Origin: a virus
Taxonomy: Duplodnaviria > Caudoviricetes
DNA: 64,000 nucleotides
Reading direction: 5' to 3' (one strand)
IMG/VR virus record: IMGVR_UViG_3300037067_001255
Coordinates: 1 to 64,000 of that record
Shown here: positions 1,533-63,378 of the stretch, piece by piece
How positions within the stretch are numbered: position 1 is the stretch's first letter
Layout of the letters: each line of letters opens with the position of its first letter
Translations under genes and position numbers: made by a program
The notes under the pieces: model-generated
Database searches by the model: none
The model's input: the letters and a program-made list of their open reading frames with translations, nothing else
Told to the model about the DNA's origin: nothing

Positions 1533-1640
1533 AGCTATAAATCATTTATAGCTGCTACGCAGCTTAGTTCCTATAGTCTAACGTTCTTAGTATATAAATG
1601 TCTTACTGGATAAAAGGATAGTGATGCTCTTTGATGTACA

Positions 1641-1707
1641 CACACGGTACTCCTTCCTACTAACCGTTAGCCCCGGCAATTAGTGGTTGGAGTACCGTGT
1701 GCTTTTT
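1641..1707 (+). terminator. Terminator-like hairpin with large loop
   Basis: CACACGGTACTCC / GGAGTACCGTGTG perfect 13-bp stem followed by CTTTTT. Confidence 0.6.
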
Positions 1708-1763
1708 AGGCTCTACTATTTTGAGTTCCTCAAATTGGGGCTAAACAAGAAAGGAAAAGAGAA

Positions 1764-2180
1764 ATGTTATACAAAGGACAACGACATCACATCTTATATG
1801 ATGTACCTACTAATGGGGTAGTTATTATAAATGATGAAGTTGTTATTTATGATTTATCAGGTAATCTAGTATTATCTTATCATATGTGTAAATCTACTCC
1901 TTGCTTTAACAAAGTAACTGAGGCGTTGAAATATCTCTTAGATACATGTCCTACAGATGCTATTAGTATTCAATCTATTCCTGTATTAAGGATGCTAAGA
2001 GATGAACTAGATGATACTATTAAACTAGGAGATGCAACTTCTACAACATCTAAACCAGTTACTATTAGAACAACATTTAGTGATCTTACTAAGGATTATA
2101 ATGAACTTGTGAAGGCAGTTACAGAAGCTAAGAAAGGAATAGAAGAAGCTGTAGAAGAAGTAAAGGAGATTATAGGATGA
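1764..2180 (+). CDS. Hypothetical protein
   Basis: ORF with purine-rich RBS; overlaps next gene at ATGA. Confidence 0.6.
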   Translation: MLYKGQRHHILYDVPTNGVVIINDEVVIYDLSGNLVLSYHMCKSTPCFNKVTEALKYLLDTCPTDAISIQSIPVLRMLRDELDDTIKLGDATSTTSKPVTIRTTFSDLTKDYNELVKAVTEAKKGIEEAVEEVKEIIG

Positions 2181-2410
2181 TTACCTTACTAAGAAGAGAA
2201 GATGGTAGTTGTATTATAGATGGACCTAATGGTAGTCTAGTAGAACCTAACTTCTTAGATGCTATTTGCTATTGTATTAGAGCCGCCGAAACAATGAATT
2301 TGAAGTTATGCATTGACGTAAGTTGTATGTTTGAACTAGCAAATGTAGTTAAGGACTATAAATCATTTATAATCATAATGAATATGCTAAAGGAGCATAG
2401 TAATGGCTAA
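2177..2410 (+). CDS. Hypothetical protein (contains palindrome as YKSFI)
   Basis: Translationally coupled ORF. Confidence 0.55.
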   Translation: MITLLRREDGSCIIDGPNGSLVEPNFLDAICYCIRAAETMNLKLCIDVSCMFELANVVKDYKSFIIIMNMLKEHSNG

Positions 2411-2581
2411 TTGTATTAGATGTGGAAAGAAGTTTAGTTCTGTCAAGTCTATTCCCGAGTATATACCAGGAACGGATATTCCAAATACAGATAAGATTGT
2501 ATATGAAATATCAGAAACCGGATTGTGTAGAGATTGCTGTAGAAATATTAAAGATATTCTAGAGAGAAAGGATAAATAGCA

Positions 2582-2839
2582 ATGGCTAAGAAAGAAGTAT
2601 TTGTATGTGATAAGTGTGGTAAAGAGTTTGAACCTACTGAATGGACTAAAGGACAACTAAAGTTTACGGTAGATATTAAGGAGGATGGTAGTAGGGGAAA
2701 CAATTTAGAGTTTGATCTTTGCCATAACTGTTGTTATGCATATATAGAGTTCATGTTTTGTGAAATGCAAAGTAACAATGTTGCTAGGCATATTAGAAAT
2801 TTTATTCCTGCTGAGAACCTAAGGATAGTACCAAGATGA
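2582..2839 (+). CDS. Small Zn-finger protein
   Basis: CDKC...DLCHNC. Confidence 0.6.
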   Translation: MAKKEVFVCDKCGKEFEPTEWTKGQLKFTVDIKEDGSRGNNLEFDLCHNCCYAYIEFMFCEMQSNNVARHIRNFIPAENLRIVPR

Positions 2840-3411
2840 AACCAAAATACTCAGAAACACAAGTAGAAACTCCTCCTTTTCCTTATAAGAAGTATGGTGT
2901 AATATATGCTGATCCTCCTTGGTCATTTAAGACATATTCAGAAACTAATCAGACTAGAGCAGCAACTAATCACTATCCAGTAATGTCATTAGATGATATT
3001 TGCTATTTAGATGTAGGTAGAATATGTTTATCTGATTGTGTACTATTGATGTGGGTAACTGATCCTATGCTAAAGGATGGACTATATGTAATAGAGAATT
3101 GGGGATTTAAGTATAAGACAGTAGCATTTACTTGGGTTAAGTTAAATCAAGATAGTACAGAGTTTATGGGAACAGGATATTGGACAAGGGCTAATCCAGA
3201 GATGTGTCTTTTAGCAACTCGGGGCCATCCAAAAAGAGAAAATAAGAGTGTTACCCAACTAACAGTAGCTAAGAGAAGAGAGCATAGTAGGAAGCCAGAG
3301 ATAATGTATAGGAAGATAGAAAGGCTGGTGAAAGGTCCTTATATTGAGTTGTTTGCTAGAACACAAAGAGCAGGATGGGACTCATGGGGTATTGAAACAG
3401 ACAAGTTCTAA
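2836..3411 (+). CDS. MT-A70 family N6-adenine DNA methyltransferase
   Basis: IYADPPW, YPVMS, WGFKYKT, G.GYWTR.N.E, HSRKP, ELFAR, GWDSWG motifs. Confidence 0.92.
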   Translation: MKPKYSETQVETPPFPYKKYGVIYADPPWSFKTYSETNQTRAATNHYPVMSLDDICYLDVGRICLSDCVLLMWVTDPMLKDGLYVIENWGFKYKTVAFTWVKLNQDSTEFMGTGYWTRANPEMCLLATRGHPKRENKSVTQLTVAKRREHSRKPEIMYRKIERLVKGPYIELFARTQRAGWDSWGIETDKF

Positions 3412-3460
3412 GGGTATAGGAACTAAGTCTATAAATGATTTATACTTAGGAGAATGGATT

Positions 3461-3790: not shown

Positions 3791-3879
3791 GCTATAAATG
3801 ATTTATAACTGGGGTATAAATCATTTATAATGTCTCAATTTTCCCGATTTTGGGGCTACAAAAGAAAGGAAAAAAAGAA

Positions 3880-4122: not shown

Positions 4123-4191
4123 ACCATTAGGTACATAAGTCCTAAACTATAAATGATTTATAATCGGGGCTAAACAGAAAGGAAAAGAATA

Positions 4192-4392: not shown

Positions 4393-4415
4393 TCTAAGAC
4401 TTCAAGTTATATCTA

Positions 4416-4702
4416 AAAGCTTTGCCTATAAATCATTTATAGCCTAAAATCTAAGAAAAGGCGGGCTAAAGATGGAAAGAAAAGAAGAGGATACTAAGCA
4501 TAGAATAGTAGTAGGTAGAGACTGTAAGGAATATAGGATAGAAGTATATAAAGACTATTACTTAGTAACTCAACTTAGTAGGTATGAAAGTTGGCTTAGG
4601 CACCCTCCACCTCCTCCAGATAGCATAAAGGTATAGATTATAGGAACTAAGCTGCTACGCAGTTATAACTGAAAGCTTTGCTTATAAATCATTTATAGCC
4701 TA
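4416..4702 (+). repeat. 31-bp direct repeat containing the palindrome
   Basis: AAAGCTTTGC(C/T)TATAAATCATTTATAGCCTA at 4416-4446 and 4672-4702. Confidence 0.85.
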
Positions 4703-4759
4703 CATACCTCAAAAATTCCAAAACCGGGGCCAACTATAAAAAAAAGAAGGAAGATTACC

Positions 4760-4978: not shown

Positions 4979-5761
4979 TTATGACTTTAGTCTTAGTTAT
5001 AAATGATTTATACTCACCTATAAATCATTTATAGTCTCTCAATTTTCTCCAATTTCGGGGCCAACTAGAAAAAAAGAAGGAGATCACTATCAAAATAGAT
5101 ATACCAGACTATGAAAGAATATTCAAACAACAAGAGCTTACGGAAAGTGATTGGAAGACAATACAAGAAGCTATTAGAGAAATAGAACAACAATCTAACA
5201 GTAATAGCTGCAATAGCCCCAAAAACCAAGGCGGGGGCCAGCGCCGCAGGCAAAGAGAGAAGACTACTAAGTATTTAGTAAAGAAGGAGTAAGAGGAGAG
5301 AGGAAGGAGAGGATAAGGAGAGGAAGGAGAGATACTATAGCCTAAGAGAAGGGGGTATAAATGATTTATAGGTGACCCCTCCAGAGTCCTGTCTACCCCA
5401 AAAGAGGTATACTCCTACCATCCGGCGAATAGTGCAGAGACGATAGCACACCAGGTCAGACACCAGCCCCTCCGCCCACACCCATATAGTGCGCGAGTGG
5501 GGCAGTCCCCTAATCTATAGCGCAATGCGCTCGGGGACAGGTATGGAACCTTGACATAGCGGAATAGCGCAAGACGCCCTTCTGTGGCGGAATATAGTCA
5601 ATATTGCGCGAAAGTCTAAGGTTATCGTCCCTTAGTACAATTCTGAACCCCCTCTAGTAACAAGGTGGCCTTTCTCCCTACAATCATAGTGGGGAGGTCC
5701 GAAGTGGTCACAAATGTGAACTTTGCCTAGATATATATGATTCAGCCCTTACTAGGCAAGG

Positions 5762-5867: not shown

Positions 5868-6001
5868 TTGACAAGGAATGACTATAATGCCTTCACCTCT
5901 GCTATGGGGAATAAGAATTCGGTATCATTTCAATGTTTACTGCCTTCTTGCGAAGGAAAGTATACATTGTAGTGATATTCTGCTAAGGAAAGGGAACTAA
6001 A

Positions 6002-7196: not shown

Positions 7197-7331
7197 GTAG
7201 CAGTTATCACTGCGTAGCAGTGAAGCAACGTAGTTGCTATAACTCATTTATGGATATGTAACTCTGTTATACATCCATAAATGGTTTATAATCACTACGT
7301 AATTTAGCTACTACGTAGCTATAGTTGCTAC
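7197..7331. repeat. 135-bp imperfect inverted repeat with four GTA-loop mini-hairpins
   Basis: 66-bp arms 7197-7262 and 7266-7331 align without gaps. Confidence 0.85.
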
Positions 7332-8273: not shown

Positions 8274-8498
8274 GTTGTTTCTCCCTTTTTCTTAGATTTA
8301 GCCCCGGCTTTTCTTAGAAAAAGGGAGTCTAGAACCTATTACCACCAATCAAGTACAAGGGAAGACTTGAGCATACAACAATATAACATGATTACATGCC
8401 CATAAATCATTTATACCTGTTGTGTGCTTAGGTCTACTTAGAGAAGTTTCTTTCTTTTCTCTAAGTTTAGCCCGCCAAAAAAAAGGAGATGAAGTAAC

Positions 8499-11379: not shown

Positions 11380-11473
11380 GCAGTAAGGTCTAAACTCTGG
11401 GTATAAATCATTTATAACTGTCACACTTGATTTATGCCCAGTCTTAGGTCATACTAAAAAGGAGGAAGTAGAT

Positions 11474-12123: not shown

Positions 12124-12638
12124 AAAAGAGTGGCTTGCATTACAGTTCTAGTGGCAGTGTCTTGTCTTACGCTCTATACACACGCTTCACATTACCCTGG
12201 ATGGGGTAATGAATTTATTGGGGGTGTTCTTCTTTTCTGGGGCATTCTGTGTACTGTGCTAGCAGCAATGAACCATATTGGTATGGATAAGAAAGGGTGA
12301 AAAAGAGTGGCTTCTCTTAGGGAACTGATAGACAAGTATGGAGTTCCTCTGAAAGTGGTGTGGTATCTTGGCTCACATCCAGTACGAAGTACAATTATCT
12401 CGGATGAAGGGAAAACTTGTACACAAAAGACTAGTAGTGGAAAGATTTGGACTGGGGTGCAGACTAAATGTGAAGGATGTAATGATTATGAGGTAGATAA
12501 AGAGATGAGTACAAGTGAGTGAGGAAGTAATGATGATGGTTGTGCTGACAGTTGTATTGGCGTTGTTCTTCGTTGTATTGTACTTCACGTCGGACAATAA
12601 GCTTTAGCGTAATCTAAGGCTATAAATGATTTATAGGT

Positions 12639-13500: not shown

Positions 13501-13810
13501 CAAGACACTAAAAGCAAGGTGGGTATACAAGGGGGTGGAAAGAACCCTAAAGATATACCCACCATCACAAAAGTTCTTAAACATGCTAGCATTCCTGGAT
13601 GTAGAAAGGAGAGTGGGGGAGATACGAGAGTGGTGTGCTAAGTTTGTATCACCTTTTTATGGAGATTGCCCCCAAAAAGTGATACAAGCTTATATAAAGT
13701 TATATGGTATTGATGTTACAAGTCCGGGGGAATGTGAAAGAAACCCAAGATGGAAGGAGGACATTTGTTATCAGTCTAGAATAAGATTTCTAAGAGAGAC
13801 CTATAAATGA
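13490..13810 (+). CDS. Hypothetical protein
   Basis: Stop codon overlaps the palindrome at 13802. Confidence 0.5.
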   Translation: MICNKTLKARWVYKGVERTLKIYPPSQKFLNMLAFLDVERRVGEIREWCAKFVSPFYGDCPQKVIQAYIKLYGIDVTSPGECERNPRWKEDICYQSRIRFLRETYK

Positions 13811-13858
13811 TTTATAGCTGCTACTCACTTAGCTGCTATAATCGAAGGAGGAAGCAAA

Positions 13859-16798: not shown

Positions 16799-17782
16799 AT
16801 GAGTCATTATTTCGAGACAGGATATAGTGTTAGGGAACCAATGTGGCATGGATTGGGTGTAGTGTTAGAGGACTATCCAAAAGATGCAATAGAGGCACAA
16901 CAATTGGCAGGACTTGACTGGAGGGTTAGAACATCTCCAATCTTTACTAAGAATGTAGATGGAGAGGTATGGATTCCAGAGCATCTTGCAGTCACAAGAG
17001 ATGATAACAACAAGGTGCTGGCAGTTGTTACAAATAAGTATGAGCCTATTCAGAACTCTGTTCTGTTTGATTTCATTGATCGCTTGCTTATGCTTGATAA
17101 GGGGGCAAAGTTTGAAACGGCGGGAAGCCTAAAAGAAGGGAGGGTTGTTTGGGCACTAACAGAACTAACAAGTCAAGAGTTCGCAATCGGAGGTAACGAT
17201 GATCTAAATAAGACGTATCTGCTAACTACAACCTCACATGATAAGTCATTGGCCTTTCAGGCAGTGGTGACTAATGTAAGGGTGGTGTGTTGGAATACAT
17301 TATCCCTTGCGTTAGGGACTACACAGAATAGTTGGAAGATTCGTCATGTGGGGGATGTAGAGGATAAAGTAGATGACGCAAGGATGGCACTGAAGATTTC
17401 CTTCAGGTGGAATAAGCAATTTAAGGAGGTATTGGAAGCCTTAGCAAAGGAGAAGATAGATGATGATTTAGAGAGCAAGATTGCAGAGGCATTATGGCCC
17501 ATTTCTGAGGAACTACTGGAAAATAAAGAGGAAAATGAGGAAAAAGTAGATAGGATTATAGACAAAAGGGGTGAAATTAACGACCTGTTTCTCCAAGTGG
17601 GGGAGCAAGACGAGTCAATTGCAGGAACCAAGTATGCGTTCTTGCAAGCAGTGACAGAGCAAGAGACTTGGTATCCTTCCTTTAAGGAACCAACACAGAG
17701 GTCTGTTCTCTGGAATGGCCTTGTGAATGATGAGTCAAGTAGGGGACGAAAAGCTCTTGCCTACAATATGTTGATTGCATAG
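16799..17782 (+). CDS. DUF932 / TIGR03299-like phage/plasmid protein
   Basis: PMWHGLG, AGLDW.V, YEPIQN, FETAGSLKEGRVVW, SHD, VRVVCWNTL, IRH. Confidence 0.88.
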   Translation: MSHYFETGYSVREPMWHGLGVVLEDYPKDAIEAQQLAGLDWRVRTSPIFTKNVDGEVWIPEHLAVTRDDNNKVLAVVTNKYEPIQNSVLFDFIDRLLMLDKGAKFETAGSLKEGRVVWALTELTSQEFAIGGNDDLNKTYLLTTTSHDKSLAFQAVVTNVRVVCWNTLSLALGTTQNSWKIRHVGDVEDKVDDARMALKISFRWNKQFKEVLEALAKEKIDDDLESKIAEALWPISEELLENKEENEEKVDRIIDKRGEINDLFLQVGEQDESIAGTKYAFLQAVTEQETWYPSFKEPTQRSVLWNGLVNDESSRGRKALAYNMLIA

Positions 17783-17798: not shown

Positions 17799-17827
17799 TT
17801 GACACAGATAGGGCTATGTGATATGAT
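17799..17827 (+). promoter_or_regulatory. Sigma70-type promoter of the parB-like gene
   Basis: TTGACA-17 bp-TATGAT with extended -10 TG; palindrome at 17881 lies between promoter and ATG. Confidence 0.75.
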
Positions 17828-17967
17828 AACACTCCCAGGTTCAAGGAGGTGACCTACAATTCGTTGACCTAACAGTGGCGTATAAATGATTTATAGCTCA
17901 AGCAGTACCGAGACAACCCTCTTCGTTAGAAGAGAAACCCCACAGTAGTAAAAGGAAAAAACGTATC

Positions 17968-19583: not shown

Positions 19584-19973
19584 ATGAAGGGAGATCAGTA
19601 CCTGCGCTTGATAGGTAAGGCAAAAGAGGAGGCATTAAAGAGTAGTTTTATTTGGTGGAAGATGGGATGTTTGATTGTTAGGGGAGGAAAGGTAATAGGG
19701 AAAGGGCATAATAGATATTCAGGTAAGAGTGAATGGGTATCTAAGAGATATGGGGTATCTTCTTGGTCATTACATGCTGAGGTAGATGCTCTCCTTTCTC
19801 TAGAGGTTGGCCCCGGCGGGGCAACAGTAGTAATAAATGGGGTAAAGCATAATGGAAATCAGATGTTATGTAAGCCTTGTAAGAACTGTCTTAAGATTCT
19901 AAAGTTGGTAGGAGTGGAGAAGATAGTATATGCAACAAAAAGTGGGTACTCAGTAATTATACTGAACCCATAA
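19584..19973 (+). CDS. Zn-dependent cytidine/dCMP deaminase-fold protein
   Basis: GCLIV..GKVIGKGHN, SLHAE, KPCKNC, GVEKIVY. Confidence 0.88.
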   Translation: MKGDQYLRLIGKAKEEALKSSFIWWKMGCLIVRGGKVIGKGHNRYSGKSEWVSKRYGVSSWSLHAEVDALLSLEVGPGGATVVINGVKHNGNQMLCKPCKNCLKILKLVGVEKIVYATKSGYSVIILNP

Positions 19974-20004
19974 ATCATTTATAGTTGAGGAGGAGAATAA
20001 CTAA

Positions 20005-23244: not shown

Positions 23245-23640
23245 ATGTTACACTATCCAAAAGTAGGAGTAGATGTAAGATGTCTGATGCAAGGAAGTCC
23301 TTGGTCTTTGAAATACAGCGTAGACTGGGGAGTTATAAATGATTTATGGAATGAGGATAGGTGCTGGAATGTTCAGGTGTTTTCTCCAAGAGGAGTAGTT
23401 CCTATTAGATTACAATTTCTTGATCTTCCATTCGACTTTCCTTTGGTTTGTAAAGACTTACATGACTGGGAAACAAGAGCATTTATTCATGATGTTAAGA
23501 GGATATTCACTGATGACACATGCCTACTTTCTAATCTGAGATTTCTGACTCGTATGTGGACTGGTGTAGGGGATGTAGCGAAATATGCAAAGGATATTAT
23601 AGATGCGAAAAGCAGACCCAGAAGTCAATTTGCTAAATAA
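23245..23640 (+). CDS. Hypothetical protein
   Basis: RBS; overlaps dnaB start. Confidence 0.55.
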   Translation: MLHYPKVGVDVRCLMQGSPWSLKYSVDWGVINDLWNEDRCWNVQVFSPRGVVPIRLQFLDLPFDFPLVCKDLHDWETRAFIHDVKRIFTDDTCLLSNLRFLTRMWTGVGDVAKYAKDIIDAKSRPRSQFAK

Positions 23641-31924: not shown

Positions 31925-31991
31925 AATTATAAATCATTTATAGCTGCTTAAGTGGCTAAACTGCGGAGCAATTATAACGTAGGTGAGTTAA

Positions 31992-37166: not shown

Positions 37167-37330
37167 CCTTTATAATTCCAATTTTTTGGTGTGGTTTTAT
37201 TGATGGGTCCTTGTTTATGCTTCTTGTGATAACATTCTGGGCATGGAGAATCAATAAGAGAACAGAGCAAAAGGAAAAGGCTGCCAGGGAATTAGAGCTA
37301 TAAATGATTTATAGAAAAGGGGTGAGTTAA

Positions 37331-42494: not shown

Positions 42495-42546
42495 CTAACT
42501 GGGAAGCTATAAATGATTTATATTTCTTCTAATTGAGGCTATCTCT

Positions 42547-44170: not shown

Positions 44171-45748
44171 ATGGATACTACTACTATTGATTCCTTGACT
44201 ATAGATAATGATAAAAGAATGCTTATGGCTAGAAAGGAATCAGAAGCACAGTCTAATTTTATGGTCTCAAGGATAATAAGAGGCTTGGAAAAAGACAATG
44301 AAATAAGATTGGGGCTAAATGAGCAGTTACTTCCTAACGGTAATAAGATACCGGGCCACAGAATAAGTAAATGGGTGTCAAAAAACAAAGATACTATCAG
44401 GGGTCTAGTAGAAGATGCAGCTAAAGAGCATGAGTTTAAGGAATCTATAAAACAGAGACTTCACACAACATTATCAAAAGGCGTAGAAGAAGGAATAGAT
44501 GATGCTGTTGGGTTGTTAGTTGGACAAGGTGTGGACGTGGATTTTGAAAGTGTATTAGATGTTGCTTCTATCAACAGAGAGATACTGAATACTCATATTA
44601 GGGATAGGTTTCCTTTTAGAAGAAGAGAAGATAGAGGAATATGGGAAGAGGGGGTTTCATTTGATACTCTTCCTGGGGAAGAGCCCGAGGGATATGGTGA
44701 TAGAGAATACAAGATTAGACCGGGACCTAATGATTATAGGATAGGATATAGGGCAGATAAGGATGAGGGAGAAGGACTAAGTCCAAATCTGAACAACAGA
44801 GTAGACAGGACTATAAATGATTTATTAGGCGATTCACATTCATTGGTATCAGAAAGTATGCGTGCATTGAGTGATGTTAGGTCAATACCTGGTGGTATTA
44901 GTGAAAAAAGAGAATCTCTTATTCCGGCAACGGTAATTGGCAAGACAATTAGTGGAAAAATGAAGATGCTATTTGTAAGTGAGAGAAACAGGGCCTATCA
45001 GAGAGCAGTTATTAGCTTAACAGCTAAATTGGGGATAAAGTTTGTTAAGTGGAATCTAAGATCAGGACATGGTGTAATATTAGGTAAATACAAGATGGTT
45101 CGTGATTGGTGTGATGATATAGCCTGTACACCAATAGAAGTTAGTTTAAGAAGATGGCCGGAGCAGATAAAAGCTCTTAGGGATTGGAATGAAACTGGAT
45201 TCTTCAAGGATGCAAAAAAAGGTAAAACATCCTTTCCAATAGAAGAGGGTCCAGTTGATATTATAAATAAGGAGAATATTAGAAAGGTTACACTTAGCCC
45301 TTTAGTAGGGATATTTAACTCTGTTCAGATTGTACAGAGAAAAATCCCAACTATTGTATATAAGTGGAATTTCTCAAAAGGAGTACAGATATTTTACGAC
45401 AGGGTAGAGAGGGAGCTTTTTGTTCCTCCACACCCATTTTGTAGTTGTATTATGATTCCACTGTTTAATTCTAAAGATGTAGAAGGTTCTACAAGGGGTG
45501 GAAAAGCCGGAGAAGAGATGAGAAATAGGTTGTTGTCTCTGGAGAATCAAGAGAGGGCGGCAGATATAGAACAAGGAATGGCTTCGGGGGAAATGTCAGA
45601 TAGTGTTCTATTAGCACTCTTAGCAGATATGTTAGAGTCAGATGATCTTGCAAAGGTATACATGGAACCAGTTAAAGAATACGGTACAGATGCAGTATTC
45701 CTTCCTCCTGAGGTGGTGATAGAACTTCCAGAAAGACAAGTTGCATAA
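44171..45748 (+). CDS. Head morphogenesis (MuF-like) protein
   Basis: SE.NRAY, WCD, PPHPFCSC; follows portal. Confidence 0.65.
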   Translation: MDTTTIDSLTIDNDKRMLMARKESEAQSNFMVSRIIRGLEKDNEIRLGLNEQLLPNGNKIPGHRISKWVSKNKDTIRGLVEDAAKEHEFKESIKQRLHTTLSKGVEEGIDDAVGLLVGQGVDVDFESVLDVASINREILNTHIRDRFPFRRREDRGIWEEGVSFDTLPGEEPEGYGDREYKIRPGPNDYRIGYRADKDEGEGLSPNLNNRVDRTINDLLGDSHSLVSESMRALSDVRSIPGGISEKRESLIPATVIGKTISGKMKMLFVSERNRAYQRAVISLTAKLGIKFVKWNLRSGHGVILGKYKMVRDWCDDIACTPIEVSLRRWPEQIKALRDWNETGFFKDAKKGKTSFPIEEGPVDIINKENIRKVTLSPLVGIFNSVQIVQRKIPTIVYKWNFSKGVQIFYDRVERELFVPPHPFCSCIMIPLFNSKDVEGSTRGGKAGEEMRNRLLSLENQERAADIEQGMASGEMSDSVLLALLADMLESDDLAKVYMEPVKEYGTDAVFLPPEVVIELPERQVA

Positions 45749-46052: not shown

Positions 46053-46111
46053 CAGCCATTAAGGGGCTGTTGTAGTAGACTATAAATCATTTATAAGGGA
46101 GCAAGAGAGAA

Positions 46112-47884: not shown

Positions 47885-47936
47885 AAGTTTGCTGACTATA
47901 AATGATTTATACCTATAGTCACGGAGGTGACAATAC

Positions 47937-48578: not shown

Positions 48579-49526
48579 ATGAGAATAGCCTTTTCCCGAA
48601 TAGGTGGTTTCGGGGACGGTTTGGTGGCAACGGCAGCAGTGTCAGGTATTAGAACAAAGTTTCCAGAAGCACAGATTACTGGTTATCTGTACTCGTCTAC
48701 TTATCAGATGTTTGCGGGGAATAAAGACGTAGACAAGTTAGTAGAGATAACTATTAGTCCAAGTAGAATACCAGAAGAAACGATTAGAGAAACTGTTAAG
48801 GATAAGTGGGATATCTTCTATGATCTAAAACCGATACCTGTAGTATACTTCAAGGAAGACTATGAAAACTACAGGACAGAACAGAATATACTGTGGGGTG
48901 ACAGACTAAAGACGCTCAATTCTGGCTATATAGATAGCTGCAGAGAATTGAGCGTCTTTGGTTTAGGGCAGTTGGAACTAATGTCCGAAGTATTAGATAT
49001 ACCATTAGGTAGGATGAAAACTAAGTTTAAGAGAACTACTAATAACTACATAACAATCTGCAATGAGGCATGGGGGGAAGCCCCCACAAAGACGTGGTAT
49101 CAAGAAAGATGGAAAAAAGTAATAGAGTTCATTATCTATCATGCACAGTTAGATGCAGTATTTCAGATTGGGGAATTCAGAACAGAGACAATGACAGGAT
49201 GTACAAACCTCACAGGTACACAGAATCTAAGATCGGCTTGCGAAATAGTGGCCGGGTCAAAACTTCACTTAGGAATAGAAGGTTTCTGGAATCATTTCTG
49301 TAAAGCATTAGAGATACCAGCAGTTATTATCTTTGGCCCGACACCAAGTTCATTTTTTGGTTATCAGGAAATAAGTAATATCCAAAGTGAAGTTTGTAAT
49401 AACTGTTGGTGGCAGAAGAAGACTTGGATGCTTGAGTGTCCAAAGGGCTTCTCAATAAACGACAGGTCTTGTATGAATGATATAACAGTAGAGAGAGTAA
49501 TTGCTGAAGCTATAAATCATTTATAG
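48579..49526 (+). CDS. Glycosyltransferase family 9 (heptosyltransferase-like)
   Basis: RIGGFGDGL, KTW..ERW, NLTG..NL, G.EG..NH, IFGPT, C..C...C...CM.DI.VE.V. Confidence 0.85.
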   Translation: MRIAFSRIGGFGDGLVATAAVSGIRTKFPEAQITGYLYSSTYQMFAGNKDVDKLVEITISPSRIPEETIRETVKDKWDIFYDLKPIPVVYFKEDYENYRTEQNILWGDRLKTLNSGYIDSCRELSVFGLGQLELMSEVLDIPLGRMKTKFKRTTNNYITICNEAWGEAPTKTWYQERWKKVIEFIIYHAQLDAVFQIGEFRTETMTGCTNLTGTQNLRSACEIVAGSKLHLGIEGFWNHFCKALEIPAVIIFGPTPSSFFGYQEISNIQSEVCNNCWWQKKTWMLECPKGFSINDRSCMNDITVERVIAEAINHL

Positions 49527-51546: not shown

Positions 51547-51675
51547 TAGGTGGGGCTTGCTGCGGAGTATCTAAGCGTAGTGCAGAAGCTACAAAGCAGC
51601 TATAAATCATTTATAGTTTTTCTGTGCAGGCAGGCTGTTGCCTGCAAAAAAATCACGGGGGAAATTGGACAATAT

Positions 51676-52649: not shown

Positions 52650-53257
52650 AATACCAGCTTCCTATTAGTGATTTTGAAGATTTGCCGGTGAATAATACGT
52701 TGCATGGTAGAAGTGTCTATCGGCCTTATGATGTTCCGGGGCATAATGTATTCAAAGGTTATTCTACGTGGCAAGATAATGGGCATAGAGGTGTGGGGGA
52801 CTCACTAGATTTATTCTGTAAAGGAAGAACACCTGTCTATGCAATAGAAGATTGTGAACAGATTAGACATAGTAATGATGAAAGTAGATTGGAAGTTATC
52901 TATCTTCAGGGGGCAAATTCTTTAGCGGTATATGCACATATCAACGCAGAGTATACAGGAATAGGGAGAAACTATAGTAAAGGTGATGTAGTAGGGTTGG
53001 TCAGAAGTGATCTTAATGAGCCCCATCTTCATTTTGAATTGTGGTATGATGGAAAAGCAGTCTCGGGGGAAACTCCGAGACAGTTACACAGCAAGATGTA
53101 TAAATGGTTTATAGGTGAACCGGGGCAGCAGGAGTTGGAGTTCAGAGTATTTGTAGCAGTAGATGGAAAAGACAAAGAGGTATTTCTTAGAGAAAACGGG
53201 GACCACAGAAGAGATCAGAACAGAAGAGATCAGAAGAAAATATACATGAGGTTCTAG
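52646..53257 (+). CDS. M23-family peptidase endolysin
   Basis: GHRG...SLDL, TPVYA, YAH, PHLHFELW. Confidence 0.85.
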   Translation: MKYQLPISDFEDLPVNNTLHGRSVYRPYDVPGHNVFKGYSTWQDNGHRGVGDSLDLFCKGRTPVYAIEDCEQIRHSNDESRLEVIYLQGANSLAVYAHINAEYTGIGRNYSKGDVVGLVRSDLNEPHLHFELWYDGKAVSGETPRQLHSKMYKWFIGEPGQQELEFRVFVAVDGKDKEVFLRENGDHRRDQNRRDQKKIYMRF

Positions 53258-53793: not shown

Positions 53794-53827
53794 TACCTAT
53801 AAATCATTTATAGTCTGGCTAGTTATC

Positions 53828-56045: not shown

Positions 56046-56600
56046 ACTGTATATATACAAGTTCTTTTAGATACTGTTCTGTTTGTGGACATAGAAGAGA
56101 ATACTACAAAGAAAGTATTATCTGATACTGTTGTATTCTCAAGTTTGGTGGAGAGAACGGGGCATAAATCACTTATAGACACATTTAATCTTTTAGATTC
56201 AATAAAGAATACTCCAGTTAAGCTGTTTTCAGACGCAGTTAACTTCTCAGCGGAAATTGTAAAATCTGGGTATAAATCATTTATAGATGCACTTATTCTT
56301 TCAGATGCAGTAAATAAGTCTGTTATTATAATATTCTCAGATGCAGTTAGTTTCTCAACAAGTCTTGTAAAGTTGGGGTATAAATCATTTATAGACTCAG
56401 TTACGTTTTCAGAGGGAGCATTTACAAGACAAGTTATTAAGAGATTAGTAGAAGCACTACATTTTTCAGATGTAGTTACTTTTATAGTAAGTAGAACTAC
56501 GTTAATCAATATAGCAGTGAAAAGTACAGCACTAAACTTACTTAGAAGATCAACAATTAACATAACAAAGAAGAGTAGTGAAATTGATATTGAGAAGTAG
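55929..56600 (+). CDS. Chimeric repeat protein
   Basis: GC-rich N-terminus with 2x WRNGGPF; AT-rich 18/36-aa K.F.D...F repeats carrying three palindrome copies 108 bp apart. Confidence 0.65.
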   Translation: MSDNLTLWRNGGPFIAAGMGNTTSLTAWRNGGPFVRFLPTVYIQVLLDTVLFVDIEENTTKKVLSDTVVFSSLVERTGHKSLIDTFNLLDSIKNTPVKLFSDAVNFSAEIVKSGYKSFIDALILSDAVNKSVIIIFSDAVSFSTSLVKLGYKSFIDSVTFSEGAFTRQVIKRLVEALHFSDVVTFIVSRTTLINIAVKSTALNLLRRSTINITKKSSEIDIEK

Positions 56601-56610
56601 GAGGACATAA

Positions 56611-57117
56611 ATGATCTATAACTTTATCAAGAGTTTGTTTGGTAGTAGAAAGAGTGGATTGGTTGAAAGTATCTCCTTTCGGGGCCACTTAAAGGTATCA
56701 CAGATACGTGGTGGAGAAGTAATAGCAACTAGAGAAGGAAAGAACTTAGTAGTAACAGTTGGTGTAGCATGGTTCATGGGTGCTCTTAGCGGTGATGTAG
56801 TAGACCCGACACTGGTAAAATATGTAGGAATGGGTACAGGGGCAGTAGCACCAATTCCTGCTAATACTGCACTAGGAAATCAGGTATGTTCAAGGGTGGA
56901 AGGAACTGCCTCAAGAACAACTACCACACTTACTAATGATACTTTCTATGTTGATGCAACAGTTCCGGCAGATAATACTTATGCAATTACAGAAGTTGGA
57001 ATATTCTCGGCAGCATCGGCGGGGACAATGCTTGCGAGAAAGACATTTGCTGCACTGAACTTAGTTAGTGGAGATAGTCTAAGAGCAGAGTGGAGTATTG
57101 TAGGTTCAGCTACTTAA
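56611..57117 (+). CDS. Tail-fiber/collar-type structural protein
   Basis: NLVVTVG, G.GTG, TALGN, ITEVGIF...GTMLAR. Confidence 0.7.
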   Translation: MIYNFIKSLFGSRKSGLVESISFRGHLKVSQIRGGEVIATREGKNLVVTVGVAWFMGALSGDVVDPTLVKYVGMGTGAVAPIPANTALGNQVCSRVEGTASRTTTTLTNDTFYVDATVPADNTYAITEVGIFSAASAGTMLARKTFAALNLVSGDSLRAEWSIVGSAT

Positions 57118-61355: not shown

Positions 61356-61395
61356 CTGGTTATAAATCATTTATAATGGAGAGGAGGAATTAGAT

Positions 61396-61893
61396 ATGTC
61401 AGCAAGATCAGTTAGAGAACAAAAAATACAAGATGCGAGGCAGGCTAGAATAGATGCCTCTGTTAATAGAGGAAAAGAGTTTAGAGATAAGCTTGTGCAG
61501 AGACAAAATACTAGAGAAAGAGTAATGCAGAATATTGGAAAGAGCAGGGAGTCTAGTGGTAGGGCAGCTAGTGGAATTGGAAAGTTGGCTGAAACAGAGG
61601 CTAGAATGAGACCTTCTGCTCCAGTATCTGCACCAACCGTTGCCGCTAATCCGGCTACTGGTGTAGCGTCAAAAGGAATGTCTAGGGTAGGTAAGATTGG
61701 TGTAGCTGCGGGGGCAATAGGTGTAGCTGCATTAGGAGTAAGAGCACTTAGAAATAGAGGACAGAGAAGAATGGAATCACAGGGTCCTCCACCTACTCAA
61801 TACTACCAGCGTGGGGATGTGTGGCCCAATCAAGACCCTGAATGTGGAAGAATAGAATACAAAGCATTCAACAATCCAAAACAGTTTGTGTGA
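61396..61893 (+). CDS. Basic protein with GDVWPN tag (4/5)
   Basis: GPPPTQYYQRGDVWPNQDPECGRIEYKAFNNPKQFV. Confidence 0.75.
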   Translation: MSARSVREQKIQDARQARIDASVNRGKEFRDKLVQRQNTRERVMQNIGKSRESSGRAASGIGKLAETEARMRPSAPVSAPTVAANPATGVASKGMSRVGKIGVAAGAIGVAALGVRALRNRGQRRMESQGPPPTQYYQRGDVWPNQDPECGRIEYKAFNNPKQFV

Positions 61894-61898
61894 TTATA

Positions 61899-62186
61899 AT
61901 GAGAGTAATAGGAAGTGGTAGGTCAAATGCTCGATTAGGTGCTAAAAACTTTAGTACGGTGGTTGGTATTAGTAGGCCGGGGTTTGGTGTTGGTCACTCA
62001 CCAAAACCTACTGTCTTAGAGAGACGAGGGGCGGGGGCACTTAAGGTATTTCATAACAGAGGGCCTTATGGATCAGGAAGACTAAACAAGTTTACTGGTG
62101 GTGATATCTGGCCCAACAAAGACGAAGAATGTAGAAGAATAGAGTACAAAGCCTTTACAAATCCTAAGATGTTTGGAGGTGCCTAA
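61899..62186 (+). CDS. Basic Gly/Arg-rich protein with GDIWPN tag (5/5)
   Basis: GDIWPNKDEECRRIEYKAFTNPKMFGGA. Confidence 0.7.
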   Translation: MRVIGSGRSNARLGAKNFSTVVGISRPGFGVGHSPKPTVLERRGAGALKVFHNRGPYGSGRLNKFTGGDIWPNKDEECRRIEYKAFTNPKMFGGA

Positions 62187-62187
62187 A

Positions 62188-63348
62188 ATGAGTGATATTA
62201 GTAATACTCTTTTGCTTGGTTCAATAGATAGGGAAACTGCTACAGCTAAGGCAATCAAAGCTGCAGTAGCACAGACCGAAGATATGTATACAATGGTTAC
62301 AAGAGAAGATAATCCTGGTGACTTGACAGGAACAATTAACGGAGCAGTTTCTGCGGCTAACTGTGATGCAAAGGTACAAGGATGCACAGCACTTTACAAT
62401 TTGTTTGCTGATTGGGTAAGTTTCCTGAACACTCGTGCGATAGATGCGACAAGTACGGGTATTGAAGATTTGCTGGCAGATAGGTACTTGAGGGTTCCAA
62501 AAAGTTGGTGTGATTACTGTATTGCAGATACAGCTTATGATGGGGCAAGGTTGTTCCCGGATACGGATGTGTCCTTAGGTACGTTTTTGTATGGTGGAGA
62601 TTTTGTAGCAGGAAGCAATCTTTCTACAGATGTTGATTATTGTTGGGGTGTAATTGAAGTAGGTACTGGTGGAATTGGTGGAGTAGATTGGGTATTAGCC
62701 GTAGATGTTACTTATGCAGATGATACTGTCGGTACAGAAGCAGTGACCATAACTAACGGTAGTCTTGCAGGGGTTCAGTTTGATATTGGAGCGAATCTTC
62801 CTAATGCAGTAGCAAAGGCAGGACAAACGGAAATAGGAATTGCAGCCACGGCAGGGTTTGTGGCGGGGCAATATGTGTTGGTGGTTGACGATCAGTATCC
62901 GGCACTGCTAACTGCCAATGCTTCCTCGGCGCAGAAGATTATCTATGTTGATCCAACTCAGATCGGGGGCTTCAGAACAGGAGACCCTGTAACTGTTAGA
63001 GATGGATCAGCTAATGAGAATCTAACGATTGAAGATATTGACTATGAACTTGGTAAGATTACTATGACAACTGCTCTCGGTAATTCGTATACAACCGGGG
63101 CTAGCGCCTTTGTATATCTTCAAGCGCCAATTTCTGGTAGAGAAGGTTGGCAGGAATGTCATGCCGTTGCTAGTGTAACTACTAATACGAAGATTGTACT
63201 TACTGGAAATCTTCAGCATACTTACTATACTGGTGCTAAGGTTATTCGTATGATTAAGGATGTTACAGATATTGATACTACCTCTGGTGGGGCTTCGGCG
63301 GAAGATGTAATTGCGAAAAGTAAGTCAGAACGAACTCTCACACAATAG
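62188..63348 (+). CDS. Virion structural protein
   Basis: Repeated A..G.T.I......GF..G..V.I beta modules. Confidence 0.6.
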   Translation: MSDISNTLLLGSIDRETATAKAIKAAVAQTEDMYTMVTREDNPGDLTGTINGAVSAANCDAKVQGCTALYNLFADWVSFLNTRAIDATSTGIEDLLADRYLRVPKSWCDYCIADTAYDGARLFPDTDVSLGTFLYGGDFVAGSNLSTDVDYCWGVIEVGTGGIGGVDWVLAVDVTYADDTVGTEAVTITNGSLAGVQFDIGANLPNAVAKAGQTEIGIAATAGFVAGQYVLVVDDQYPALLTANASSAQKIIYVDPTQIGGFRTGDPVTVRDGSANENLTIEDIDYELGKITMTTALGNSYTTGASAFVYLQAPISGREGWQECHAVASVTTNTKIVLTGNLQHTYYTGAKVIRMIKDVTDIDTTSGGASAEDVIAKSKSERTLTQ

Positions 63349-63378
63349 TATAAATCATTTATAGGAGGTGAATTGATT

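What the first reader, a model, noticed from the sequence alone, without database searches (positions are those of the whole stretch)
1536..63363. Genome-wide lattice of a 15-bp palindrome TATAAAT(C/G)ATTTATA
Seen: 34 exact and about 11 near copies in 64 kb. Beyond 8 kb they are strikingly evenly spaced (e.g. 13802, 15637, 17881, 19969, 21688, 23334, 25810, 28007, 30096, 31928 ... 59052, 61361, 63349); the largest gap is 3.8 kb, over polA. Most are intergenic or overlap stop codons. Others sit inside conserved genes: initiator EYKSFI, SNF2 KYKSFI, MerR YKSFM, MuF INDLL. In the endolysin the copy reads TAT AAA TGG TTT ATA, a single change that avoids an in-frame TGA, which suggests selection on the DNA motif itself. 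Flanks are unrelated, so these are binding sites rather than mobile repeats. Inference: a dimeric protein is loaded about every 2 kb along the whole genome, regardless of promoters. That fits genome coating, condensation or shielding, or roadblock silencing. Analogies: Noc/NBS, KorB/OB, N15 dispersed centromeres, L5 stoperators.
Basis: partly seen in the sequence, partly recalled or inferred. Interest (0 to 1): 0.95.

Follow-up and report, generated by a model that had tools for sequence, protein, structure and literature searches.

The report
Evenly spaced ParB docking sites in phage
An uncultured 102-kb groundwater phage carries one exact 15-base palindrome about every 2 kb along its whole chromosome, even written into genes. 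The copies are most likely docking sites for the phage's own ParB/KorB-type DNA clamp, an arrangement I could not find described in print for any phage.

Summary
The window holds 34 exact and 12 near copies of TATAAATSATTTATA (0 and 0.4 expected). The whole 102-kb phage holds 54 exact copies and 67 in all.

- **Site anatomy.** The sites are really about 21 bp and two-fold symmetric, and the centre is always G or C.
- **Selection on DNA.** All ten YKSFI peptides in the proteome use the same 15 nucleotides.
- **Spacing.** It is far more even than chance (CV 0.36 against 0.85-0.97; 0 of 20,000 simulations).
- **Relatives.** Four related contigs (37-50% protein identity where measured) keep the same word and mostly the same spacing. 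Only about a third of the sites sit at orthologous positions. An equally related sister lineage has no lattice in 42 syntenic kb.
- **Candidate binder.** The only recognised DNA-binding protein I found shared by the lattice phages is an orphan ParB (17968-19053) with Spo0J/Noc/KorB-like CTPase motifs and no ParA. Its recognition helix, (S/T)QAYVS, recurs in an unrelated 43-kb phage that carries the same palindrome.

Best reading: these are loading sites or operators for a phage ParB clamp that tiles the genome. Binding, CTP dependence and purpose are inferred, not shown. It is not a promoter, because canonical sigma-70 promoters lie elsewhere. This scan has noted similar lattices in other phage genomes. 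In print, only the unexplained Cluster O mycobacteriophage repeat is comparable.

The parts
1536..1550 (.). site, exact, intergenic; 40 nt downstream of a sigma-70-like promoter match (1468-1496)
2357..2371 (.). site, exact, intragenic frame 0 (YKSFI) in ORF 2177-2410
3430..3444 (.). site, exact, 16 nt upstream of the XRE gene start
3793..3829 (.). doublet of two exact sites (3793, 3815; 22 bp apart) that together form a -35/-10-like early promoter (3802-3831)
4148..4162 (.). site, exact, intergenic, early region
4427..4441 (.). site, exact, lying in the 17-nt spacer of a sigma-70-like promoter match (4422-4450)
4683..4697 (.). site, exact, intergenic, early region, same layout as 4427
4998..5033 (.). 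doublet of two exact sites (4998, 5019; 21 bp apart) forming a -35/-10-like early promoter (5007-5035)
5356..5370 (.). site, exact, intergenic
7238..7290 (.). two degenerate sites (7238, 7276; 2 mismatches each) in the two arms of a 66-nt inverted repeat (7197-7331)
8401..8415 (.). site, 1 mismatch, intergenic
11402..11416 (.). site, exact, intergenic
12621..12635 (.). site, exact, 3 nt upstream of tRNA-Met (12639-12716)
13802..13816 (.). site, exact, overlaps the upstream gene's stop codon
15637..15651 (.). site, 1 mismatch, intergenic
17799..17827 (+). sigma-70-type promoter of parB (11 of 12 consensus plus TG); an equivalent promoter stands upstream of parB in two relatives
17881..17895 (.). 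site, exact, in the parB leader 72 nt before the start codon; a site lies 83-96 nt upstream of parB in two relatives (REL, L196) but not in L218
17968..19053 (+). orphan ParB-family gene (361 aa): CTPase-type N-domain motifs, HTH with recognition helix TQAYVS, acidic tail; the proposed binder
16799..17782 (+). DUF932 gene, conserved neighbour of parB in all relatives seen
19969..19983 (.). site, 1 mismatch, overlaps a stop codon
20808..20822 (.). site, exact, intergenic
21688..21702 (.). site, exact, intragenic (YKSFI) in the DnaD/HTH_36 initiator-like gene
23334..23348 (.). site, 1 mismatch, intragenic frame 2
25810..25824 (.). site, exact, overlaps the stop codon of the primase gene
28007..28021 (.). 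site, exact, intragenic (YKSFI) in SNF2 helicase; the same 15 nt at the same codons in two relatives
30096..30110 (.). site, 1 mismatch, intragenic (YKSFM)
31928..31942 (.). site, exact, 3 nt after tRNA-Arg (31849-31924)
35755..35769 (.). site, 1 mismatch, overlaps a stop codon, 12 nt before the recA-like gene
37299..37313 (.). site, exact, overlaps a stop codon
40131..40229 (.). two exact sites (40131, 40215) inside small ORF 40120-40287, frame 2
42508..42522 (.). site, exact, between terminase and portal; unchanged in a ~90% identical strain while nearby bases differ; a site also lies just before the portal gene in REL (inspection of the gene order; the automatic map missed it)
44812..44826 (.). 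site, 1 mismatch, intragenic (INDL) in the 525-aa gene after portal
46081..46095 (.). site, exact, intergenic; orthologous position in REL
47897..47911 (.). site, exact, just after the major capsid gene; orthologous position in REL
49511..49525 (.). site, exact, overlaps a stop codon; orthologous position in REL
51601..51615 (.). site, exact, intergenic
53099..53113 (.). site, 1 mismatch (YKWFI), inside the Peptidase_M23 gene
53798..53812 (.). site, exact, at the edge of the G+C-rich island
56163..56393 (.). three sites (56163 with 2 mismatches; 56271 and 56379 exact) at a 108-bp period inside a repetitive ORF
56606..56620 (.). degenerate site (2 mismatches) overlapping a start codon
59052..59066 (.). 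site, exact, intergenic, 10 nt before the start codon
61361..61375 (.). site, exact, intergenic
63349..63363 (.). site, exact, intergenic, directly followed by the ribosome-binding site

Best explanation
The palindromes are dyad-symmetric sites of about 21 bp, recognised by a dimer of the phage's own orphan ParB-family protein (gene 17968-19053). ParB is transcribed early by host RNA polymerase from a near-consensus sigma-70 promoter. By analogy with ParB, Noc and KorB, it would load at each site as a CTP-dependent clamp and slide about a kilobase either way. Sites every ~2 kb would then let the whole chromosome be covered, so selection keeps the maximum gap small and writes sites into long genes where no intergenic space exists. 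At the left end, the sites are built into early promoters and would act as operators that shut off early genes, as KorB does on plasmid RK2.

Shown here:
- the sites are real, and selection acts on the DNA;
- the sites are symmetric;
- the spacing is even;
- the sites are conserved among relatives but their positions turn over;
- the sites co-occur with one particular ParB recognition helix.

Inferred:
- that ParB is the binder;
- CTP-dependent sliding;
- what the coverage is for (silencing, compaction, or protection of the phage DNA).
For: **1. Reality and selection on DNA.**
- 54 exact copies against 0 expected.
- YKSFI occurs 10 times in the proteome (0.012 expected), always through the same 15 nt out of 144 synonymous ways.
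- Shuffling synonymous codons cuts exact copies from 54 to 29.9, and 26 of those are intergenic and untouched by the shuffle.
- The centre base is G or C in 112 of 112 cores across four phages.

**2. Recognition as a symmetric duplex.**
- Flank preferences at -1/-2/-3 mirror those at +1/+2/+3 (p = 0.64, 0.43, 0.39 for a difference).
- Relatives have other flanks that are again symmetric.
- In relative REL, the outermost base of each half-site varies independently. This fits a protein dimer on DNA, not a hairpin (data).

**3. Spacing.**
- CV is 0.356 against 0.85-0.97 under the two nulls.
- Every gene of 2.6 kb or more holds an internal site.
- REL keeps a mean gap of 1.9 kb with CV 0.45, yet only 5 of 17 mappable sites (6 counting the pre-portal site by inspection) are at orthologous positions.

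**4. Link to ParB.**
- ParB is the only recognised DNA-binding protein I found shared by the lattice contigs checked (G000, REL, L196, L218), besides a partial C-terminal match to the initiator-like protein in REL.
- These ParBs are 38-39% identical overall, but the helix (S/T)QAYVS is invariant. It aligns with the recognition helix of Spo0J.
- The unrelated 43-kb phage G001 carries 3 exact and 4 one-mismatch copies of the same palindrome against 0 in the control. It encodes a ParB-N/HTH/methylase fusion that is only 27% identical but has the helix SQAYVS.
- QAYVS is found in just 2 of the 150 best ParB-family representatives, both of this family, and in none of the other loci fetched.
- L218 was picked because it has the same helix. 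It has three core-exact sites 2.0-2.1 kb apart.
- ParB homologues with other helices sit in phages with other 7-N-7 palindromes (G006: 9 exact copies over 41 kb; G007).

**5. ParB family features.**
- A profile search of solved structures hits Spo0J (1e-24), Noc (7e-19) and KorB (3e-6).
- The GFRRHA and ENMQREDL boxes are present.
- There is no ParA, integrase or sigma factor in the genome.

**6. Range.** KorB clamps reach promoters up to 1.5 kb from their loading site (PMC11790492). That matches half the lattice spacing.

**7. Operator layout.** Early-region sites overlap -35/-10 elements or lie in the promoter spacer. A site sits in the parB leader.
Against: - No binding data exist, and the phage is uncultured.
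- The related lattice contigs share much of their proteome, so co-occurrence with ParB inside the family is not independent evidence. The independent support rests on one unrelated phage (G001) and a six-residue helix.
- G001's eight sites are not evenly spaced, so the helix-site link does not by itself explain the lattice.
- Several conserved proteins of unknown function (for example 28951-29499, 29535-30146, 30786-31709) could be the binder.
- The C-terminal dimerisation domain that a clamp needs is not recognisable. The AlphaFold model was poor (pLDDT 56).
- The glutamate of the canonical GERR box is replaced by phenylalanine.
- Not every phage with a ParB-like gene has a lattice: Gordonia phage Schnabeltier and MT835476 have none.
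- In relative L208, 13 of 16 sites lie directly upstream of a ribosome-binding site. A gene-start-linked function would also predict this.
- Whether the lattice-free sister lineage lacks this ParB could not be settled. The 42-kb record held covers only the recA-to-tail region.
Confidence: 0.6

Rival explanations
1. The sites are operators, or symmetric 'stoperators', of a different phage-encoded dimeric regulator. This could be the XRE protein at 3461-3790 or one of the conserved proteins of unknown function. It would silence or time transcription by blocking RNA polymerase at many points.
For: - A site lies 16 nt upstream of the XRE gene, and 11 sites cluster among the small early genes, overlapping promoter elements.
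- 15-17-bp palindromes with an odd centre are typical of Cro/CI-type operators (established knowledge).
- Several conserved unknown proteins exist.
Against: - XRE and RHH have no homologue in REL, which keeps the identical core.
- No other HTH family is on record in REL's early or replication genes.
- A roadblock function does not explain the even spacing or the independence from orientation.
- The helix-site co-occurrence in G001 points to ParB.
Confidence: 0.15
2. The sites bind a host protein, such as a nucleoid-associated protein, host Noc/ParB or a global regulator, which the phage recruits or exploits.
For:
- The host is unknown.
Against: - The sister lineage has no sites in 42 syntenic kb. 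It has the same degree of relatedness and comes from habitats where the relatives are also found.
- The same word occurs in an unrelated phage that brings its own ParB-type HTH with the same helix.
Confidence: 0.07
3. The palindrome is a phage-specific promoter. Its half-site resembles the T4 late promoter or a -10 element, and a phage factor would read it, starting transcripts just upstream of each ribosome-binding site.
For: - The half-site resembles T4's late -10 element (established knowledge).
- Many sites lie 10-30 nt before a start codon, and in L208 they lie 2-4 nt before the ribosome-binding site.
- One site lies 3 nt before a tRNA.
Against: - All genes of the main body lie on one strand, yet the site and its flanks are fully symmetric and the centre base shows no orientation bias.
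- There is no -35 or other upstream signal.
- No RNA polymerase or sigma-factor match was found in the proteins scanned.
- Perfect sigma-70 promoters (12 of 12) stand at 26431, 45755 and 74463, and one of 11 of 12 stands before parB. None is at a palindrome.
- 24 of the 67 sites genome-wide are deep inside genes at positions set by spacing.
- The sister lineage expresses the same genes without any such word.
Confidence: 0.05
4. The sites serve DNA metabolism rather than a coat. They could be periodic nicking, priming, recombination or topoisomerase sites needed every ~2 kb during replication or packaging.
For: - The even spacing and the strong strand asymmetry (GC skew +0.25, one coding strand) fit a process that runs along the DNA.
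- The phage encodes its own primase, helicase, PolA, RecA and an Hjc-like resolvase.
Against: - Known primase and nick sites are short and asymmetric.
- A symmetric 21-bp site with independent half-sites indicates binding by a dimer.
- A 7-bp A/T stem with a 1-nt loop cannot extrude as a cruciform.
- There is no link to any such enzyme across relatives.
Confidence: 0.05
5. The word acts in RNA, as a hairpin, a processing site or a translational operator just upstream of ribosome-binding sites.
For: The sites lie close to ribosome-binding sites in intergenic positions.
Against: - The flanking positions -1/+1 are complementary in only 19 of 63 sites.
- In REL, the outer bases give 7 C..A mismatches against 2 C..G pairs, so there is no covariation for pairing.
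- Both centre orientations are used equally on the coding strand.
- 24 of the 67 sites genome-wide lie far from any start codon.
Confidence: 0.03

Closest known systems
KorB and its OB operators on IncP-1 plasmid RK2 (PMC11790492)
   Same: - The protein is a ParB-family CTPase with an HTH.
- The site is an odd-length palindrome with a central G/C.
- About a dozen copies are dispersed over the replicon, some at promoters and some far from any.
- The clamp slides up to about 1.5 kb and represses transcription.
   Different: - KorB has a ParA partner (IncC) and the clamp-locking partners KorA and TrbA. Here there is no ParA and no known partner.
- RK2 has 12 sites per 60 kb without even spacing. 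Here there are 67 sites per 102 kb, evenly spaced and written into coding sequence, in a phage with no tyrosine-integrase match that is apparently lytic.
- By sequence, this ParB is closer to Spo0J and Noc than to KorB.
17-bp dyad repeat of Cluster O mycobacteriophages (Corndog; PMC4351075)
   Same: - Both have 7-bp inverted arms.
- Both have more than 30 near-invariant copies spread through a siphovirus genome.
- About a third of the copies lie inside genes.
- The phages are not obviously temperate.
- The phages encode a ParB-like domain protein and glycosyltransferases.
- The authors predicted a dimeric binder and judged a transcriptional role unlikely.
   Different: - The sequence differs, and the spacer is 3 nt rather than 1.
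- Those copies are denser at one genome end, and even spacing was not reported.
- The binder and function remain unknown, and ParB was not proposed there.
Noc and its NBS sites in Bacillus subtilis
   Same: Noc is an orphan ParB paralogue without a ParA partner. It loads at many dispersed palindromic sites and spreads, so that a whole chromosome region is marked. It is the second-best solved homologue of this protein.
   Different: - Noc is a cellular protein, and its sites are tens of kilobases apart.
- Noc tethers DNA to the membrane through an N-terminal amphipathic helix. I did not test for such a helix here.
Stoperators of Cluster A mycobacteriophages (L5, Bxb1)
   Same: Both are tens of short conserved sites spread through a phage genome, mostly in short intergenic gaps, and bound by a phage protein that silences the genome.
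   Different: - Stoperators are asymmetric and oriented with transcription. They are bound by the immunity repressor of a temperate phage (as summarised in PMC4351075).
- The sites here are symmetric and show no orientation bias, and the genome has no tyrosine-integrase match.
BisD (ICEclc) and VirB: ParB-like CTP clamps that regulate transcription (PMC12409273, PMC10770331)
   Same: They are orphan ParB-type clamps on mobile elements that load at specific sites and act on genes at a distance.
   Different: They use one or a few loading sites and activate defined promoters. They do not form a genome-wide lattice.

Membership tests
ParB/Noc/KorB CTPase clamps (the protein 17968-19053) | N-terminal ParB/Srx-type nucleotide-binding domain with the arginine box (GxRR) and the ENLQRE box | tested here: met
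   Pfam matches ParB_N weakly and HTH_ParB. A profile search of solved structures hits Spo0J at 1e-24, Noc at 7e-19 and KorB at 3e-6 over residues 21-186. GFRRHA and ENMQREDL are present, and their key residues (the G-F-R-R box, E-N, Q-R, D-L) are invariant in four homologues. The canonical glutamate of GERR is a phenylalanine.
ParB/Noc/KorB CTPase clamps (the protein 17968-19053) | Central helix-turn-helix that reads a palindromic site | tested here: met
   HTH_ParB and HTH_3 match residues 128-212. The helix TQAYVS aligns with the Spo0J recognition helix. This region is the only confidently folded part of the model.
ParB/Noc/KorB CTPase clamps (the protein 17968-19053) | C-terminal dimerisation domain that closes the clamp | tested here: inconclusive
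   A conserved C-terminal block (about residues 266-314) is predicted as two helices. It matches no family, and the model is poor (pLDDT 56).
ParB/Noc/KorB CTPase clamps (the protein 17968-19053) | CTP binding and hydrolysis, and site-stimulated clamp closure and sliding | not testable with these tools
   This needs biochemistry.
ParB/Noc/KorB CTPase clamps (the protein 17968-19053) | Specific binding of the protein to the repeated palindrome | tested here: inconclusive
   The evidence is co-occurrence only: same helix with same palindrome in related contigs and in one unrelated phage, and other helices with other palindromes.
ParABS partition system | A ParA ATPase partner encoded with ParB | tested here: not met
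   There is no CbiA/ParA (PF01656) match in the 102-kb genome, while the control genomes were all positive. The neighbouring gene is DUF932, not parA.
Stoperator system (Cluster A mycobacteriophages) | Asymmetric sites oriented with transcription, bound by the immunity repressor of a temperate phage | tested here: not met
   The sites and their flanks are symmetric, and the centre base is C or G about equally. There is no tyrosine-integrase match.
Cluster O-type dyad repeat array | Invariant 7-bp inverted arms, tens of copies through the genome, both between and within genes, not tied to promoters | tested here: met
   Searches show these features here. The description of the family comes from PMC4351075. 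The sequence and the spacer length differ, so this is the same kind of array, not the same element.
Phage-specific promoter | Directional element upstream of transcription units, with a cognate RNA polymerase or sigma factor | tested here: not met
   The site is symmetric and lacks any upstream element. No sigma70_r2 match was found, and no polymerase among the proteins scanned. Canonical promoters lie elsewhere. The sister lineage lacks the word.

The most novel reading that the evidence does not exclude
A phage with no sign of lysogeny uses an orphan ParB-type CTP clamp and an evenly spaced lattice of loading sites to coat its entire chromosome. This would be a virus-encoded 'chromatin'. It could silence, compact or shield all phage DNA at once, and it is maintained by selection on site spacing rather than on individual sites. 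That would be a new biological role for the ParB CTPase switch, and the same solution seems to recur in several unrelated phage groups.
Probability: 0.4. Interest if true: 0.85.

Novelty: new variant of a known kind. Interest (0 to 1): 0.72.

Why it matters
ParB-family CTP switches are known from chromosome and plasmid partition (ParB), nucleoid occlusion (Noc) and plasmid or ICE gene control (KorB, VirB, BisD). A 2025 survey found many orphan ParB proteins in phages but gave them no role (PMC12704722).

A genome-wide, evenly spaced lattice of loading sites would give these phage proteins a concrete and testable function. It would also explain the long-unexplained Cluster O mycobacteriophage repeats.

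The system is compact: one protein and one 15-mer. The sites are exact, and the spacing constraint is measurable. It therefore suits single-molecule work on how far such clamps travel. It also suits testing whether coating protects phage DNA from host nucleases or times phage gene expression.

Tried and rejected
**Finding relatives**
- Megablast of 10 kb against cultured and deposited phages found no match.
- The search for related loci with the terminase alone found no relatives. With an alignment it found 47 loci, none carrying a lattice.
- Scans for the doublet pattern in viral, metagenome and genome collections mostly returned 11-bp tandem repeats in A+T-rich DNA. None is related to this phage by protein.
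- A scan for the single 15-mer in viral contigs gave mostly single chance hits. It did yield G001 and a giant-virus bin.

**Expression and population data**
- No RNA holder is listed for this DNA, so there is no evidence on expression or transcript starts.
- Read laying on four metagenome runs gave only short, shallow contigs. One site (42508) could be seen unchanged amid flanking differences. The rest was too fragmentary to use.

**Structure**
- The AlphaFold model of ParB from a 4-sequence alignment was poor (pLDDT 56.5), so I ran no fold search.

**Generality of the ParB link**
- Gordonia phage Schnabeltier has a ParB-like gene but no repeated palindrome. MT835476 has a canonical ParB with two parS-like sites and no lattice. 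A ParB-like gene alone does not predict a lattice.
- P0163, a ParB with a variant helix that would have been the sharpest covariation test, had no DNA available.

**The lattice-free sister lineage**
- Only 42 kb of it is held, covering recA to the tail genes, and that stretch holds no ParB.
- The word-indexed protein search is not exhaustive, since it also missed REL's PolA. Absence of ParB on the 73.6-kb contig therefore cannot be claimed.

**Other**
- Rfam found nothing in the window beyond the three tRNAs, and the one sub-threshold match in 5.0-8.6 kb is not credible.
- The RNA-hairpin, cruciform and promoter readings were considered and rejected, for the reasons given under the rival explanations.

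Full report
**What the window is.** The window is the first 64 kb of a 102,062-bp IMG/VR virus record (94% complete by CheckV). A groundwater metagenome run holds 99% of its sampled words and may be its source, and landfill and wastewater runs hold small shares of its words.
- Apart from a few apparent minus-strand early modules at 5.4-8.4 kb, the recognisable genes lie on the + strand, with strong GC skew.
- It is a siphovirus-like phage. It encodes terminase, an SPP1-type portal, capsid and tape-measure proteins. It also has its own replication set: DnaB-like helicase, primase, SNF2 helicase, PolA and RecA.
- A glycosyltransferase cluster lies beyond the window.
- Searches of the whole record found no tyrosine integrase, no CbiA-type ParA and no sigma-70 region 2. 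None of the roughly 40 larger or conserved proteins scanned against Pfam or PHROGs matched an RNA polymerase.

- There are 34 exact copies of the 15-mer in the window against 0 expected, and 46 with up to two mismatches against 0.43 expected.
- The whole genome has 54 exact copies and 67 in all.
- Genome-wide, 43 of the 67 lie between genes or on a gene boundary, in a genome that is about 91% coding by my gene calls. The other 24 are inside genes.
- Only two reading frames are open across the word. Frame 0 forces a centre C (YKSFI). Frame 2 gives IN(D/H)L.

**Selection acts on the DNA, not the protein.**
- YKSFI occurs ten times in the proteome against 0.012 expected. Every instance uses the same 15 nucleotides out of 144 synonymous possibilities.
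- Shuffling synonymous codons within genes removes nearly all gene-overlapping copies. Exact copies fall from 54 to 29.9, of which 26 are intergenic and untouched by the shuffle.
- In the terminase of a relative, the word is written as INHLY. Orthologues read IEHFY, IDRLY or IDDGFY at that place, so sites are installed where the protein tolerates them.
- The SNF2 site is kept as the identical 15 nt in three phages whose SNF2 proteins are about 45% identical.

**The site is a symmetric duplex element of about 21 bp.**
- Positions -3/-2/-1 mirror +3/+2/+1: purine at -3 with pyrimidine at +3, and C (never A) at -1 with G (never T) at +1. Left and reverse-complemented right flanks are statistically indistinguishable.
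- There is no upstream -35-like signal.
- The centre is G or C in 112 of 112 cores across four phages, and both orientations are about equally common although transcription runs one way.
- In relative REL, the outermost base of each arm varies independently. C..A occurs 7 times and C..G twice, close to the independence expectation of 3.2. Only 19 of 63 sites in this genome have complementary -1/+1 bases.
- This is what a protein homodimer reading two half-sites predicts. A hairpin or a directional promoter predicts something else.

**The spacing is far too even for chance.**
- Beyond 8 kb the gaps average 1.9 kb, with CV 0.356, minimum 663 and maximum 3,827.
- Uniform placement gives CV 0.97. 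Drawing the same numbers of sites from real gene boundaries and coding positions gives 0.85. No simulation out of 20,000 reached the observed value in either case.
- Boundary sites alone are much less regular (CV 0.61, maximum gap 7.7 kb). The intragenic sites fill the holes, and every gene of 2.6 kb or more holds one or two.

**Relatives.** I found no close relative among deposited phages. Metagenome contigs gave four related pieces.
- REL: 60 kb rebuilt from an ENA contig; its terminase is 50% identical.
- L208: 21.7 kb; its PolA is 50% identical.
- L196 and L218: about 6 kb each.

All four carry the same core. REL has 31 copies with a mean gap of 1.9 kb and CV 0.45. L208 has 16 copies, L196 has 4, and L218 has 3 copies spaced 2.0-2.1 kb. 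Flank preferences differ between lineages but are symmetric in each. Between this phage and REL, only 5 of 17 mappable sites lie at orthologous positions (6 if the site before the portal gene is counted by inspection). The spacing is kept all the same. Selection therefore acts on coverage rather than on particular places.

**A sister lineage without the lattice.** An equally related lineage (G008; terminase 54% and capsid 75% identical in the tblastn alignment) is syntenic over 42 kb, from recA to the tail fibres. It has no lattice at all, of this or any other palindrome, where this phage has 22 sites. The lattice is therefore an accessory system, not part of the basic expression signals of these genes.

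**Who reads the sites.**
- The only recognised DNA-binding protein I found shared by the lattice contigs checked, besides a partial match to the initiator-like protein in REL, is a ParB homologue (17968-19053). Wherever the neighbouring gene could be seen, it follows a DUF932 gene.
The supposed MerR has no detectable DNA-binding domain.
- The ParB is a true Spo0J/Noc-type protein by profile search (1e-24 and 7e-19; KorB 3e-6). It has the arginine box and the ENLQRE box of the CTPase domain and an HTH.
- Across four homologues that are only 38-39% identical, the recognition helix (S/T)QAYVS is invariant.

**The strongest single piece of evidence is independent of this family.** G001 is a complete 43-kb phage that shares nothing but weak PolA and methylase matches with this one. 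It carries three exact and four one-mismatch copies of the same palindrome (control 0). It encodes a ParB-N/HTH/methyltransferase fusion that is only 27% identical but has the helix SQAYVS. This helix is rare. Among the 150 best ParB-family representatives of a 1.8-billion-protein library, only two have QAYVS, both from this family. None of the roughly 200 other loci fetched has it. Conversely, ParB homologues with other helices sit in phages with other 7-N-7 palindromes. G006 has nine exact copies spread over 41 kb, and G007 has another word.

**Relation to promoters.** The phage has canonical host-type promoters.
- Three perfect 12-of-12 matches stand at 26431, 45755 and 74463. About 0.02 would be expected by chance (my estimate).
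- An 11-of-12 match with TG stands before parB.
- None is at a palindrome.

The parB control region is conserved in three phages. It consists of a consensus promoter, a 5-7-codon mini-ORF, a palindrome, and then parB 70-100 nt further on. L218 has no site in this position. At the left end, eleven sites crowd into 4 kb of small early genes. Two doublets (21-22 bp apart) supply both the -35-like and -10-like hexamers of a promoter. Two single sites fill the 17-nt spacer of another. These look like operators through which the binder would switch off early genes.

**Mechanism proposed.** ParB is made early and binds as a dimer at each palindrome. By analogy with ParB, Noc and KorB, it closes as a CTP-bound clamp and slides. 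KorB reaches promoters up to 1.5 kb from its loading site (PMC11790492). Loading sites about 2 kb apart would therefore let clamps reach every base of the chromosome. That explains both the ceiling on gap length and the cost-driven floor. Binding by ParB, CTP dependence, sliding and the purpose (global silencing, compaction, or protection of phage DNA) are inferences.

**What is known.**
- The closest published case is the 17-bp dyad repeat of Cluster O mycobacteriophages. It has 34 copies, a third of them in genes, in non-temperate phages that also carry a ParB-like gene and glycosyltransferases.
- A 2025 survey lists many orphan phage ParBs without assigning a role (PMC12704722).
- Full-text searches found no description of a ParB-linked lattice in a phage.
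- This scan has noted similar evenly spaced palindrome arrays in other phage genomes. Those notes are unchecked AI notes, and I used them only as leads.

**Caveats.**
- There are no binding or expression data.
- Within the family, co-occurrence with ParB is not independent evidence.
- G001's sites are not evenly spaced.
- Some phages with ParB-like genes have no lattice.
- The ParB status of the lattice-free sister lineage is unknown.

Noticed in passing
L015 and its record (giant-virus bin GVMAG-M-3300014838-26, 574 kb): This A+T-rich giant-virus bin holds 266 copies of the same 15-mer with up to 1 mismatch, against 7 for the control word. That is about one per 2.2 kb, and the copies seen in the one 11.8-kb locus inspected (L015) lie in very A+T-rich stretches. 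It looks like an unrelated promoter- or terminator-type word that shares the same core.
   Followed up: partly
window 5400-8450: This stretch has no good + strand genes. It holds reverse-complement copies of the early leader module (palindrome, then a GGGGCYAA box, an A-rich tract and the ribosome-binding site), so a few early genes probably run leftwards here. A 66-nt inverted repeat (7197-7262 / 7266-7331) carries two degenerate sites and several GCTAC repeats. It could be a divergent control region or an origin.
   Followed up: partly
window 17849-17872: A mini-ORF (8 codons including the stop, with a strong ribosome-binding site) lies between the parB promoter and the palindrome. Mini-ORFs of 5-7 codons occupy the same place in two relatives. 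This may be a conserved leader peptide in parB control.
   Followed up: partly
window 26431-26459 and 45755-45783; genome 74463-74491: Three perfect sigma-70 consensus promoters (12 of 12; the first and third also have the TG extension) stand between genes. The phage therefore relies on host RNA polymerase for at least some middle and late units. The host probably favours extended -10 promoters and strong GGAGG ribosome-binding sites.
   Followed up: partly
window 56100-56450: Three copies of a 108-bp tandem repeat lie inside ORF 55857-56600, and each contains one site. Both strands are open here.
   Followed up: no
window 53800-56000: This is a G+C-rich island (0.53 against about 0.41 elsewhere). 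It encodes a 535-aa beta-helix/NosD-like protein, probably a recently acquired tail-spike or depolymerase module.
   Followed up: no
window 1400-2450 and genome 100350-101400: The two ends of the record carry diverged paralogous modules, sites included. In one pair of paralogous sites the centre base is flipped (C against G), which agrees with the centre orientation being neutral. REL's gene order runs from the glycosyltransferase cluster straight into the early genes. The record may therefore be opened at an arbitrary point of a circularly permuted or terminally redundant genome.
   Followed up: partly
window 12621-12716 and 31849-31942: One site ends 3 nt before tRNA-Met, and another starts 3 nt after tRNA-Arg.
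   Followed up: no
L203 and its record (G006, 41 kb, direct terminal repeats): This is an unrelated high-G+C phage with a canonical GERRWRA ParB. It carries nine exact copies of a different 7-N-7 palindrome spread over the whole genome (gaps 2.2-8.4 kb), one of them inside parB.
   Followed up: partly
whole genome: Isolated half-sites are scarce: 8 and 5 on the two strands, against about 17 each expected from a first-order Markov model. Stray half-sites may be avoided.
   Followed up: no
window 39519-39839: A SpoVS-like gene lies just upstream of the terminase genes. It is conserved in REL and in the lattice-free sister lineage.
   Followed up: no
genome 84000-97000 (outside the window); REL 1-10000: A large cluster of glycosyltransferases, a nucleotidyl-transferase, a GHMP kinase and methyltransferases is conserved in REL. 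It recalls the virion-glycosylation genes of Cluster O mycobacteriophages.
   Followed up: no
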